A stretch of DNA of 4,135 nt, taken from IMG/VR virus record IMGVR_UViG_2737471848_000025. One strand, written 5' to 3'. This DNA is from a virus. Lineage: Duplodnaviria > Heunggongvirae > Uroviricota > Caudoviricetes. A model generated the notes under the pieces. It was not told the origin of the DNA. It saw only the letters and a list, made by a program, of their open reading frames with translations, and ran no database searches. Every line of letters begins with the position of its first letter. Positions within the stretch are counted from its first letter, which is position 1. The translations under genes and the position numbers were made by a program. Positions 265 to 1,544 of this stretch are shown here, piece by piece.

Positions 265-428
265 GAGGACTTGCATACAATCCCGGCATTCTTCCAGCAG
301 AAATGATTATTCGCCAACGCGTAAAGCCAATGCCATCGAGAGAGGAATTGCTTAAGAGAAATTCTTTTCCTTCAGTGAATCAAAACAAATATCTGAATGC
401 GATGTGGCGTAAAGGAGGCAAGCAGTGA
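261..428 (+). CDS. Small hypothetical protein, 55 aa, basic ([55 protein letters not shown]); not in the ORF track
   Basis: ATG at 261 overlaps the upstream stop (ATGA). GGAGAG at 249-254 sits 6 nt upstream. Its TGA at 426-428 overlaps the GTG start of the next gene at 425. It fills the only apparent gap in an otherwise contiguous operon. Confidence 0.4.
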
Positions 429-490
429 GCGAAATTAACTATAAAGAACTGCGCGAGGCGGCGAAACAGGCAACGCAAGATGAATGGGTA
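411..490 (+). repeat. Copy 1 of a duplicated SD + start + N-terminal-codon cassette of the Ea22-like genes
   Basis: Hand alignment of 411-490 against 856-935 gives about 57 of 80 identical positions, and about 25 of the first 30 (AAGGAGGCA..CAGTGAGC.AAATTAA). Confidence 0.6.
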
Positions 491-883
491 GCATATATTT
501 TGCCGGGCCATAACGGCATTTATCCTGCGCGCACGTCTGAGGGTAGGCATTGCGGATACTTTATTGACTGGCCTGGTACTGATGGACAGAGGAACGCTAG
601 TGCCAATGCCCGTTATATCGCGGCTATCCCACCAAAAGTTGCGCTGGACCTCCTAGGCGAAATTAAGCGCCTGGAGGACAAAAATATTGATGCCATGTGC
701 CAAATTGCAGAGCTGGAGAGCAATCGCGCGGCGCTGGCGGCGGAGCATGGTATTCAGATTGCAATAAATGAACTGCTTGCTCTGGCCCCGCGTCTGGATA
801 AACGAGCGGTGGATGCACTCTCTGTGGCTGTGGAGCACCTGTGTAAACTGATTAAGAAGGAGGCAGTCAGTGAGCAAAATTAA
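425..883 (+). CDS. Ead/Ea22-like protein, short paralog (152 aa), GTG start
   Basis: N-terminus [17 protein letters not shown] and the internal block [20 protein letters not shown] match the conserved N-terminal module I recognise from Ead/Ea22-like proteins of lambdoid prophages. AAGGAGG at 412-418 lies 6 nt upstream of GTG 425. The first in-frame ATG is about 90 codons downstream, so GTG is the likely start. Confidence 0.8.
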
Positions 884-935
884 TTACCAGGCACTGCGTG
901 AGGCGGCAGAGAAAGCAACGTGGGGAGACTGGGAC
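856..935 (+). repeat. Copy 2 of the same cassette; it also supplies the last codons and stop of the upstream paralog
   Basis: Same alignment as copy 1. The upstream gene reads into this copy in a different frame and terminates at TAA 881-883. Confidence 0.6.
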
Positions 936-1544
936 TCATATAAACCACACCGTGGCGCACGTGGTTATGAGGTCCGACTAAGTAGTCAGGCCATTGCGCA
1001 ACACGTCCTGAAAAACAACGCTGAATTTATTGCTGCCTTTAATCCAAAGATTGCTTTGGCACTACTGGATGAACGGGAAAGAAACCAGCAATACATCAAA
1101 CGCCGCGACCAGGAGAACGAGGATATTGCGCTAACGGTAGGGAAGCTGCGTGTTGAGCTGGAAGGCAAAGACAGCAAAATAGCCAATCTTACCGCCGAAC
1201 GCGATGCTCTTCGTGAAGGAGAGATGGGCGACGCTAGGCATAGCAACACACGGGCCGCAGCTGATATCTACTTCCAACTGGTCGAGGAGTGCGAAATTCC
1301 TGCTGGCCGTTCTCTGGTCGAGTACGTTGACGATATGCGCGAGAAGCTGGAAGCCGCAGAGAAGCGCATTGCTGAGCTGGAGTTGCGGGAGGTTGTGCTT
1401 CCGCAATGCTATAGCATGTTGCATCGCGTCGATTTTGACGAGCCTTACCACACTGAAATGGTTTACAGGCAGCATCAGGTTCTTGAGGCACTGCACAACG
1501 CTGGAATAAACGTCACCGAAGCAGGTAAAGGAGAGGCATCATGA
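870..1544 (+). CDS. Ead/Ea22-like protein, long paralog (224 aa) with charged, probably coiled-coil C-terminal half, GTG start
   Basis: N-terminus [17 protein letters not shown] and block NAEFIAAFNPKIALALLDE parallel the upstream paralog. AAGGAGG at 857-863 lies 6 nt upstream of GTG 870. The C-terminal half is rich in E/R/K/L/A repeats (e.g. EKLEAAEKRIAELELRE). The stop overlaps the next start (ATGA at 1541-1544). Confidence 0.8.
   Translation: MSKINYQALREAAEKATWGDWDSYKPHRGARGYEVRLSSQAIAQHVLKNNAEFIAAFNPKIALALLDERERNQQYIKRRDQENEDIALTVGKLRVELEGKDSKIANLTAERDALREGEMGDARHSNTRAAADIYFQLVEECEIPAGRSLVEYVDDMREKLEAAEKRIAELELREVVLPQCYSMLHRVDFDEPYHTEMVYRQHQVLEALHNAGINVTEAGKGEAS

What the first reader, a model, noticed from the sequence alone, without database searches (positions are those of the whole stretch)
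425..1544. Two tandem Ea22-like paralogs with a shared N-terminal module and unrelated C-terminal effector parts
Both proteins begin MS-x-INY-x-x-LREAA-x-x-AT and share an IAA-x-x-PK-[VI]-AL-x-LL block, then diverge completely: one has a short helical tail, the other a long charged coiled-coil-like region. In lambda, ea22 occupies this same position between xis and the recombination genes, and published work on lambda and Stx phages points to an effect on the lysis-lysogeny decision, though the biochemical function is unknown. Two diversified copies suggest a variable-effector architecture.
Basis: partly seen in the sequence, partly recalled or inferred. Interest (0 to 1): 0.5.

Follow-up and report, generated by a model that had tools for sequence, protein, structure and literature searches.

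The report
Tandem Ea22-family genes in a prophage

Summary
Window 425-883 (gene A, 152 aa) and 870-1544 (gene B, 224 aa) both start with GTG and overlap by 14 nt. Both score well above the Pfam Ead_Ea22 (PF13935) threshold. They are homologous over their first ~100 residues (BLASTP E 4e-12; profile-profile probability 98.9%) and unrelated after that.

B is an allele of lambda Ea22 / P22-type EaD. It shares an identical 33-residue coiled-coil core with lambda Ea22 but has a different C-terminal domain. A belongs to a second lineage found mainly on P1-like phage-plasmids, here in a minimal form. NCBI's annotation pipeline (PGAP) labels A a pseudogene, but the form is conserved in length across hundreds of contigs.

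Both genes lie in the early-left operon between the recombination genes and xis-int, as ea22 does in lambda. Published work (Dydecka 2020; Goddard 2024) already describes Ea22 mosaicism, variable C-terminal domains and several variants per genome. The finding is therefore already known.

Points added here:
- The N-terminal module itself contains a hypervariable insert.
- Exchange end-points fall at short conserved linkers.
- The unexplained "+GE" C-terminal motif is the ribosome-binding site of the next gene.
- No enzymatic "effector" domain is detectable.

The biochemical function remains unknown. The most likely role is an oligomeric coiled-coil binding protein that biases the phage towards lysogeny.

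The parts
411..418 (+). Shine-Dalgarno sequence AAAGGAGG for gene A. It lies inside the last codons (RKGGKQ*) of the upstream DUF2737 gene (261-428), whose stop overlaps the start of A (GTGA).
   Evidence: Read directly from the sequence. It is the start of the 86-nt repeat D1.
425..883 (+). Gene A: Ead/Ea22-family protein, 152 aa, GTG start, a minimal form of the 'A lineage'. Residues 1-20 form helix 1, 21-60 a beta-rich variable insert, 61-79 helix 2 ([19 protein letters not shown]), 70-123 a long helix, and 126-151 a return helix.
   Evidence: PF13935 64.5 bits. A 98%-identical 152-aa protein was seen on 77 contigs, and an 88%-identical one on 161 contigs. AlphaFold2 model. PGAP annotates only 425-748 and marks it a pseudogene.
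746..880 (+). C-terminal tail module of A ([45 protein letters not shown]).
   Evidence: The tail is found joined to a different N-insert class (P0052, P0056, P0065). A 54%-identical version sits at the C-terminus of the 247-aa P0333. Block-mean pLDDT is about 82-88 over residues 101-140 and falls to 69 and then 46 at the end of the tail. There is no Pfam or PHROG match. The two alleles differ by 11 non-synonymous and 1 synonymous change.
854..863 (+). Shine-Dalgarno sequence AAGAAGGAGG for gene B, encoded inside the KKE codons of A. A and B overlap by 14 nt (870-883).
   Evidence: Sequence, repeat D1 copy 2, and a recurrent megablast end-point at window 857.
870..1544 (+). Gene B: Ead/Ea22-family protein, 224 aa, GTG start. 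It is an allele of lambda Ea22 / P22-type EaD.
   Evidence: PF13935 102.3 bits over the whole profile. 55% identity to lambda Ea22 over aligned columns. 81% identity over full length to 'EaD protein' of Lederbergvirus HF4s. 98% identity to RefSeq 'ead/Ea22-like family protein' P0124.
1057..1163 (+). Conserved coiled-coil core and recombination linker of B (…ALLDERERNQQYIKRRDQENEDIALTVGKLRVELE).
   Evidence: The protein sequence is identical to lambda Ea22 over these residues. Across 49 distinct DNA versions, mean nucleotide identity is 93%, with variation concentrated at third codon positions. It is the most frequent isolated megablast match in E. coli genomes, with end-points at 1057 and about 1160-1175. 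Block-mean pLDDT is 85-91.
1164..1352 (+). Optional helical insert module of B (GKDSKIANLTAERDALREGEMGDARHSNTRAAADIYFQLVEECEIPAGRSLVEYVDDMREKLE).
   Evidence: The module is present or absent independently of the other modules among relatives. Its AlphaFold2 confidence is low.
1353..1382 (+). Junction motif AAEKRIAELE that precedes the C-terminal domain.
   Evidence: The same motif precedes unrelated C-terminal domains in lambda Ea22, 933W L0140 and dozens of cluster representatives.
1383..1541 (+). C-terminal domain of B (LREVVLPQCYSMLHRVDFDEPYHTEMVYRQHQVLEALHNAGINVTEAGKGEAS). It is not the lambda-type C-terminal domain.
   Evidence: No PDB sequence match at E<=1 and no Pfam match. The same domain is joined to other N-inserts and stalks in P0274, and related versions occur in P0263 and P0286.
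1527..1536 (+). AAAGGAGAGG encodes K-G-E of B and serves as the Shine-Dalgarno sequence of the downstream DUF551 gene (ATG at 1541, ATGA overlap with the stop of B).
   Evidence: Sequence. In 54 of 57 distinct 3' contexts carrying the [KR]G[EGDV] motif, a downstream ORF of at least 40 aa starts nearby with a GGAG-type Shine-Dalgarno match upstream, usually 4-7 nt after the match.
1541..2074 (+). Gene C: P22 EaA-type DUF551 protein, translationally coupled to B. In other phages its DUF551 part (from about 1841) forms the C-terminal domain of a fused Ea22 protein.
   Evidence: PF04448 79 bits. 58% and 38% identity to HF4s EaA. Fused forms are P0269, P0294, P0308 and 933W L0140. PHROG_60 spans both B and C.

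Best explanation
The region holds two translationally coupled members of the Ead/Ea22 family. They lie in the early-left (pL, N-antiterminated) operon of a lambdoid prophage with P22-like accessory genes, integrated beside mlrA in a bovine E. coli.

Shown here:
- Both proteins have the same plan. A two-helix N-terminal clamp (helix 1 xINYxxLREAAxxAT; helix 2 NAxFIAAxxPKxALxLL) encloses a variable beta-rich insert. A long coiled-coil stalk follows, and then a variable C-terminal part.
- B is the canonical Ea22/EaD allele. A belongs to a second lineage typical of P1-like phage-plasmids and is a minimal version: N-module, stalk and one return helix.
- Family diversity is combinatorial. Matches to other genomes end at short conserved linkers: the Shine-Dalgarno/GTG/helix-1 segment, the helix-2 plus 107-nt core segment, KRIAELE, and the AGIxIKGE segment that also contains the ribosome-binding site of the next gene.

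Inferred by homology to lambda Ea22, which is experimentally a tetramer with a dimeric C-terminal domain and a pro-lysogenic deletion phenotype:
- Both proteins are non-enzymatic oligomers made within minutes of infection or induction.
- They use their variable heads to bind host proteins, or possibly proteins of rival elements.
- The net effect is to slow lytic development and favour lysogeny.
- Two different copies give the phage two different sets of heads.

The overall confidence of 0.55 combines three parts: family membership about 0.97, modular reassortment at linkers about 0.8, and the binding-adaptor, pro-lysogenic mechanism about 0.35.
For: Family membership.

Identity of B with lambda Ea22 and EaD.

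Operon context and coupling: all genes are co-oriented, starts and stops overlap, and each Shine-Dalgarno sequence lies inside the upstream gene. The window has no sigma-70-like promoter (0 found, 5.8±2.5 expected).

Architecture: AlphaFold2 long helices with block-mean pLDDT of roughly 74-91.

Combinatorial modules: segment presence/absence patterns. An exhaustive N-module profile search found 3,656 clusters at 50% identity with E<=1e-3. There are at least 9 N-insert classes and dozens of C-terminal classes.

Linkers: the core is 93% identical at DNA level with variation at third codon positions, and end-points recur at window 857, 1057, about 1165 and 1844.

Tandem pairs are common. About half of the 80 viral loci retrieved with the N-module profile carry two copies, usually an A-lineage-like copy upstream of a B-lineage copy, with a 4-nt overlap.

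Oligomeric state, pro-lysogenic phenotype and published mosaicism: PMC10834534, PMC7093339 and PMC8614690.
Against: No binding partner of any Ea22 protein is known. Published two-hybrid surveys found none.

The N-modules and B's C-terminal domain are predicted with low confidence (pLDDT about 45-70), and fold searches returned nothing significant.

B lacks the lambda-type C-terminal domain, so function may not transfer.

A is called a pseudogene by PGAP in three genomes, and its tail alleles differ by 11 non-synonymous and 1 synonymous change.

In this particular lysogen an IS100 sits between pL and the pair, so expression here is doubtful.

Oligomerisation of A or B, or of A with B, could not be computed.
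Confidence: 0.55

Rival explanations
1. The Ea22-family proteins are fast-evolving counter-defence or host-takeover proteins. Their variable N-insert and C-terminal heads bind and neutralise host or prophage immunity proteins, and the pro-lysogenic phenotype is a side effect.
For: Module diversity is extreme and conserved scaffolding is minimal. The location is the recombination-to-xis accessory region, beside Ral, anti-RecBCD Abc and Kil. A 2026 preprint places the anti-OLD protein Oad2 (P22 EaE-like) in this hotspot and notes fusions of Oad2 with EaD/Ea22 proteins. Expression is early and comes only from pL, that is on infection or induction, which suits counter-defence. The tail alleles of A differ almost only by amino-acid changes.
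Against: No experiment links any Ea22 protein to a defence system. The PADLOC scan was empty, though PADLOC holds defence proteins rather than anti-defence proteins. Diversity generated by recombination does not by itself show an arms race. The 11:1 ratio rests on 12 substitutions.
Confidence: 0.25
2. Gene A is a decaying remnant, an internally deleted Ea22 copy with no function of its own. Only B is a working gene, so the pair is one gene plus debris.
For: PGAP marks this form 'incomplete, missing C-terminus' in three independent genomes. Longer A-lineage proteins (195-242 aa) carry a real C-terminal domain that A lacks. There is no evidence of purifying selection on the tail. No deposited phage genome holds 80% or more of A. 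Other loci show 60-61-aa truncated upstream copies.
Against: The ORF is open and its length is conserved at 149-152 aa. About 60 of the 240 retrieved cluster representatives carry the tail, at 71-98% identity overall, and the larger clusters were seen on 77 and 161 contigs. The tail recurs with a different N-insert class and at the end of the 247-aa P0333. The tail is predicted as a helix packed on the stalk, with block-mean pLDDT of about 82-88 over most of its length. A keeps a good Shine-Dalgarno sequence and start, and it carries the Shine-Dalgarno sequence of B, so it must at least be traversed by ribosomes for coupling.
Confidence: 0.15
3. The variable C-terminal parts are enzymatic or toxic effectors, as in polymorphic toxin systems, with the next gene acting as an immunity or partner gene.
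For: The layout is superficially similar: a conserved N-terminal part, a variable C-terminus and a tightly coupled downstream gene.
Against: Apart from PF13935 itself, the only Pfam family found in more than two of the 147 representatives is DUF551 (20 of 147). The other matches are one- or two-off hits, several of them weak coiled-coil matches, and none is a toxin or nuclease family. The C-terminal domains are small (about 45-150 aa). The solved lambda C-terminal domain is a small acidic dimer with no catalytic features. The proteins have no secretion signals. Ea22 is non-essential and non-toxic in lambda screens.
Confidence: 0.04
4. The N-terminal resemblance between A and B is a chance match or low-complexity similarity, not homology.
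For: None beyond the modest 38% identity.
Against: BLASTP E 4e-12. hhalign probability 98.9%. Both N-halves pass the Pfam gathering threshold on their own. The repeat is also visible at DNA level.
Confidence: 0.01

Closest known systems
Bacteriophage lambda Ea22 (NP_040612, 182 aa; C-terminal domain solved by NMR, Goddard et al. 2024)
   Same: It belongs to the same Pfam family and occupies the same position between the recombination genes and xis-int. It has a GTG start, the same helix 1, a coiled-coil core identical in sequence to that of B, the KRIAELE junction, and a terminal K-G-E.
   Different: Lambda has the shortest N-insert and no 63-residue stalk insert. It has an 80-residue beta/alpha C-terminal domain that neither A nor B possesses. 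Lambda carries one copy; this locus carries two.
P22-type EaD followed by EaA (Lederbergvirus, e.g. phage HF4s)
   Same: B is 81% identical to HF4s EaD over its full length and is followed, with an overlap, by an EaA-type DUF551 gene, as here.
   Different: HF4s EaD has a different N-insert and is annotated with a 64-residue N-terminal extension. HF4s has no upstream A-lineage copy.
Ea22 variants V1, V2 and V3 of Shiga-toxin phages (933W, Phi24B, P27; Dydecka 2020, Goddard 2024)
   Same: These share an N-terminal segment and coiled coil, have unrelated C-terminal domains and a mosaic gene structure, and occur as two or three variants in one genome. 933W L0140 aligns with B through the core and the junction.
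   Different: In V2 the DUF551 domain is fused to Ea22. Here it is a separate, coupled gene. The A-lineage stalk ([19 protein letters not shown]…) and its short tail are not among the three described variants as far as the papers' text shows. I did not retrieve the V1 and V3 sequences.
Ead/Ea22-like proteins of P1-like phage-plasmids (about 87-98-kb E. coli and Salmonella plasmids; Punavirus P1 relatives)
   Same: A is 87-89% identical over its full length to 152-aa proteins on such plasmids. It is usually followed there by a second Ea22-like gene.
   Different: Here the gene sits in a lambdoid chromosomal prophage. Most plasmid copies are the longer 205-234-aa forms ending in …RKGGNQ.

Membership tests
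Pfam PF13935 Ead/Ea22-like | Score above the curated gathering threshold (27 bits) | tested here: met
   A scores 64.5 bits and B 102.3 bits. The N-halves alone score 56 and 59.3 bits.
Pfam PF13935 Ead/Ea22-like | Three-part plan: N-terminal segment, central coiled coil, separate C-terminal part | tested here: met
   AlphaFold2 predicts helix 59-117 in B and helix 70-123 in A with good confidence. The N-terminal and C-terminal parts are distinct but predicted with low confidence.
Lambda-type ea22 locus | Located in the pL operon between the recombination genes and xis-int, in the same orientation | tested here: met
Lambda Ea22 sensu stricto | Lambda-type C-terminal domain (beta1-beta2-alpha1-beta3-beta4-alpha2 dimer) | tested here: not met
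   Neither protein has a credible PDB sequence match: none for B and only two marginal, unrelated hits at E about 0.7 for A. The alignment shows different C-terminal sequences.
Lambda Ea22 sensu stricto | Tetrameric assembly | not testable with these tools
   Only monomer prediction is available. B's core is identical to the lambda stalk segment, which makes a similar assembly plausible.
Lambda / Stx-phage Ea22 | Pro-lysogenic phenotype of a deletion | not testable with these tools
   Known from the literature only.
P22-type EaD | Full-length similarity to an annotated EaD, followed by EaA | tested here: met
   B is 81% identical to HF4s EaD. Gene C matches HF4s EaA.
Stx-phage Ea22 variant V2 | DUF551 fused at the C-terminus of Ea22 | tested here: not met
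   DUF551 lies in the separate gene 1541-2074. Fused relatives exist elsewhere.
Polymorphic toxin / variable-effector systems | Recognisable toxin or enzyme domain at the variable C-terminus | tested here: not met
   No such Pfam domain is found in A, B or any of the 147 representatives.
Known anti-phage defence systems (PADLOC) | Match to a defence-system protein model | tested here: not met
   The only hit is a coiled-coil noise match for B (PbeC, E 0.0035, 14 bits). A has no hit.

The most novel reading that the evidence does not exclude
Ea22-family genes are a recombination-driven, hypervariable set of early counter-defence or host-capture proteins. A conserved coiled-coil stalk presents two independently swappable heads, the N-insert and the C-terminal domain. 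The conserved linkers double as recombination cassettes and as ribosome-binding sites. The recurrent A-lineage/B-lineage tandem pair works as a two-target or hetero-oligomeric unit. Under this reading the pro-lysogenic phenotype is a by-product.
Probability: 0.2. Interest if true: 0.6.

Novelty: already known. Interest (0 to 1): 0.2.

Why it matters
Ea22 is one of the last lambda early proteins without a biochemical function. In Shiga-toxin phages it delays the lytic cycle, which controls toxin release. This locus does not by itself open that question.

The family-scale picture may help the design of head-swap and pull-down experiments. That picture comprises thousands of combinations built from a few conserved linkers, a variable insert inside the N-module, detachable DUF551 domains, and a trivial explanation for the '+GE' motif.

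The picture also warns that automatic annotation systematically labels the short A-type form a pseudogene.

Tried and rejected
- PDB sequence searches of A and B found nothing credible.
- Foldseek of the B model against PDB and of the A model against BFVD gave no match with E<=0.001. Both models have low confidence outside the helices, so these searches say nothing.
- PADLOC and NCBIfam returned only coiled-coil noise.
- Rfam found no RNA family in the window.
- A weak PF18909 (dGTP_diPhyd_N) hit of B's N-half (E 0.059) did not recur in eight N-module variants and is treated as noise.
- The dN/dS comparison of A with L087 is invalid, because the sequences differ by one codon in length and were not aligned. 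Re-examination showed that the L087 tail is identical to the window's at nucleotide level. Only the L086 comparison is usable, and it rests on 12 substitutions.
- I considered whether the upstream DUF5405 gene is the EaE/Oad2 relative mentioned in the OLD preprint. There is no similarity to HF4s EaE.
- My clustering of C-terminal domains chains unrelated domains through shared stalk segments. I therefore quote only 'dozens' of classes.
- The third homologous-protein search and the metagenome and genome contig scans were not needed.
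Full report
**Origin and context.** The window is 100% identical to the chromosome of E. coli OkiPb01684, isolated from bovine faeces (NZ_AP042519.1). It covers the distal part of the early-left arm of a lambdoid prophage integrated beside mlrA (yehV). All genes are on the + strand:
- DUF5405 (13-264)
- DUF2737 (261-428)
- gene A (425-883)
- gene B (870-1544)
- a DUF551 gene (1541-2074)
- DUF4222 (2162-2404)
- a 44-aa ORF
- xis (2561-2815)
- int (2849-4135)

Upstream in the source genome lie N, ral, kil, erf and an anti-RecBCD gene. 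An IS4 and an IS100 are inserted in that arm. The window has no sigma-70-like promoter (0 found against 5.8±2.5 expected) and no Rfam match. This fits a read-through operon.

**Checking the observation.**
- BLASTP of A against B gives 38% identity over about 100 residues, E 4e-12, and nothing else.
- A profile-profile comparison of the two N-module types gives 98.9% probability over all columns. The B type has an insert that is 11 residues shorter.
- Both proteins pass the Pfam Ead_Ea22 threshold of 27 bits, A with 64.5 bits and B with 102.3 bits. So do their N-terminal halves alone.
- After about residue 107 (A) and 116 (B) there is no similarity. A's tail has no Pfam or PHROG match, and B's C-terminal part matches only PHROGs of unknown function.

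**What each gene is.**

B is an allele of lambda Ea22 and of P22-type EaD.
- It is 55% identical to lambda Ea22 over aligned columns.
- It has the same helix 1, an identical core LLDERERNQQYIKRRDQENEDIALTVGKLRVEL and the same KRIAELE junction.
- It differs in three respects: a different N-insert, an extra 63-residue helical insert and a different ~50-residue C-terminal domain.
- It is 81% identical to 'EaD' of Lederbergvirus HF4s. As in that phage, it is followed by an EaA-type DUF551 gene.

A belongs to a second lineage with a different stalk sequence ([28 protein letters not shown]).
- Its closest full-length relatives (87-98% identity, 149-152 aa) occur on many contigs. Many of these are 87-98-kb plasmids that carry the P1 genes hot and humD.
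- P1-type phage records carry the N-module at about 57% identity.
- Longer A-lineage proteins (195-242 aa) share residues 1-107 and then carry various C-terminal domains that end in …RKGGNQ.

**Structure.** AlphaFold2 gave only moderate models (mean pLDDT 66 for B and 70 for A).
- The confident parts are one long helix in each protein (B 59-117, A 70-123). In A there is also a return helix (126-151), giving a helical hairpin.
- The N-modules and B's C-terminal domain are poorly predicted.
- Fold searches with these models returned nothing significant and are uninformative.

**Is A a pseudogene?** PGAP annotates only 425-748 and calls it 'incomplete, missing C-terminus', both here and in two plasmids.

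Evidence against the pseudogene call:
- The 152-aa ORF is open and conserved in length. About 60 of the 240 retrieved cluster representatives carry its tail, and the larger clusters were seen on 77 and 161 contigs.
- The tail is found joined to a different N-insert class (P0052, P0056, P0065).
- A 54%-identical version closes the 247-aa protein P0333.
- The tail is predicted as a helix packed on the stalk, with block-mean pLDDT of about 82-88 over most of its length.

Evidence for the pseudogene call:
- The two tail alleles differ by 11 non-synonymous and 1 synonymous change. This does not indicate purifying selection, although the counts are small.
- No deposited phage genome contains the complete form.

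I regard A as probably a real, minimal Ea22-type protein (about 0.8), not as settled.

**Family-scale picture.** An exhaustive profile search with the N-module found 3,656 clusters at 50% identity with E<=1e-3, ranging from 81 to 381 aa.
- All 147 best representatives are PF13935. Only 20 carry DUF551, and no other Pfam family is found in more than two of them.
- Between helix 1 and helix 2 there are at least nine mutually unalignable insert classes, plus very short ones as in lambda.
- After the stalk there are dozens of unrelated C-terminal parts.
- Segment presence/absence shows free reassortment. A-type N-modules occur with B-type stalks and C-terminal domains, and the reverse also occurs.
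- The DUF551 domain of the downstream gene C appears nearly identical as the fused C-terminus of Ea22 proteins in other genomes (P0269, P0294, P0308).

So the 'variable architecture' is real. It affects both ends of the protein, and nothing points to catalytic effectors.

**How the mosaic is built.** Megablast matches in 5,426 complete E. coli genomes end again and again at the same window positions:
- 857, the Shine-Dalgarno sequence and start of B
- 1057 and about 1160-1175, the two edges of the core
- 1844, the start of DUF551
- about 2070

58% of genomes match some part of window 261-2160, but only the source genome has 80% or more of it.

The core exists in 49 DNA versions with 93% mean identity. 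Variation is concentrated at third codon positions (0.092, against about 0.02 at positions 1 and 2). This indicates protein-level constraint and provides enough identity for homologous exchange.

The two genes share an 86-nt repeat that begins at AAGGAGG.

That recombination occurs at these linkers is an inference from the positions of the end-points. It was not observed directly.

**Tandem pairs and coupling.** About half of the 80 viral loci retrieved with the N-module profile carry two Ea22-like genes in tandem.
- The usual order is an A-lineage-like copy upstream of a B-lineage copy.
- The genes typically overlap by 4 nt (GTGA or ATGA).
- GTG is the usual start codon.
- The sample is biased, because confirmation and ranking used A.
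- RefSeq annotation of E. coli hits often lists two or three 'ead/Ea22-like' genes side by side.

**A by-product.** Dydecka et al. noted an unexplained terminal K/R-G-E tripeptide in all Ea22 proteins. Of 57 distinct 3' contexts with this motif, 54 have a downstream ORF of at least 40 aa that starts nearby with a GGAG-type Shine-Dalgarno match upstream, usually 4-7 nt after the match. In the typical case that match is the AAAGGAG encoding K-G-E/G. The motif is therefore the Shine-Dalgarno sequence of the next gene. The same holds here at 411-418, 854-863 and 1527-1536. Lambda keeps the motif (…AAAGGAGAGTGA) without a substantial downstream ORF, which looks like a relic.

**Mechanism.**

Shown here: family membership, operon position, translational coupling, a helical stalk and modular reassortment.

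Taken from the literature:
- Lambda Ea22 is a tetramer with a dimeric, acidic C-terminal domain.
- Deletion speeds induction and raises burst size.
- No partner is known.
- Stx-phage genes are mosaic, with two or three variants per genome.

Inferred: A and B are non-enzymatic oligomers that bind other proteins through their variable heads early after infection or induction and bias the outcome towards lysogeny.

The main rival is a counter-defence role. It is suggested by the diversity and by the neighbourhood, where the anti-OLD protein Oad2 lies in this hotspot and is sometimes fused to EaD/Ea22. It has no direct support.

**Comparison with what is known, and novelty.** Both proteins are 98% identical to proteins already labelled 'ead/Ea22-like family protein'. 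The shared N-terminus and coiled coil, the unrelated C-terminal domains, the mosaic structure and the multiple variants per genome are all published (PMC7093339, PMC8614690, PMC10834534).

The finding is therefore already known. What this analysis adds is incremental:
- the hypervariable insert inside the N-module
- the scale of the diversity
- the map of the linkers
- the ribosome-binding-site explanation of '+GE'
- the A-lineage link to P1-like phage-plasmids
- the probable mis-annotation of the short form as a pseudogene

Noticed in passing
window 1527-1536, 854-863, 411-418; loci L002-L085: The terminal K/R-G-E 'motif of unknown significance' reported for Ea22 proteins is encoded by AAAGGAG, the Shine-Dalgarno sequence of the overlapping or adjacent downstream gene. 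This holds in 54 of 57 distinct 3' contexts. Lambda keeps it as an apparent relic.
   Followed up: yes
window 425-748 (PGAP feature); L086:1501-1821; L087:1496-1816: PGAP systematically labels the 152-aa A-type Ea22 form as a pseudogene 'missing C-terminus', although the ORF runs to 883 and is conserved in length in many genomes. Its two tail alleles differ by 11 non-synonymous and 1 synonymous change.
   Followed up: partly
window 2071-2157 (+): There is an unannotated 28-aa hydrophobic ORF, MMNWPEAFTAVGVAIAVAFILYSLFRWG. It has an ATGA overlap with the stop of the DUF551 gene, and AGGAGG lies 4 nt upstream. It may be a small membrane peptide. No homology search was done.
   Followed up: partly
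L001:1665-3002 and L001:6727-8528 (source genome, upstream of window position 1): The prophage carries an IS4 between the repressor region and N. It also carries an IS100 (istAB) between the anti-RecBCD gene and DUF5405, immediately upstream of the window. pL transcription into the Ea22 pair is probably interrupted, and the prophage may be defective.
   Followed up: no
window 1057-1163: The 107-nt coiled-coil core of B is the most widely shared piece of the region. It occurs as an isolated 90-97% match in many E. coli genomes, including a K-12 strain (AG100), apparently a lambda lysogen. The exact module combination of window 261-2160 is found in only 1 of 5,426 complete genomes.
   Followed up: partly
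window 1841-2074; P0269, P0294, P0308: The DUF551 domain of the downstream EaA-type gene occurs almost unchanged as the fused C-terminal domain of Ea22 proteins elsewhere. Gene boundaries in this cassette are therefore fluid, with split and fused forms.
   Followed up: partly
L004, L086, L087 (87-98-kb plasmids); The A lineage is mainly carried by P1-like phage-plasmids of E. coli and Salmonella. This implies exchange of this cassette between P1-like and lambdoid elements.
   Followed up: partly
L038-L044, L048, L055, L059: Several viral contigs have a 60-61-aa N-terminal stump of an upstream Ea22-like gene, followed in most of them (not L055) by about 440-500 nt and then an intact B-lineage gene. 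This suggests decay or frameshift of the upstream copy in some lineages.
   Followed up: no
window 1-4135: No sigma-70-like promoter match is found anywhere in the window (0 against 5.8±2.5 in shuffles). GTG is the predominant start codon of Ea22-like genes across loci.
   Followed up: no
window 2561-4135: The xis-int module is about 99% identical to that of Stx1 phage VT1-Sakai / YYZ-2008 and sits beside mlrA (yehV), the known Stx1-phage attachment site. The accessory genes to its left are P22-like.
   Followed up: no
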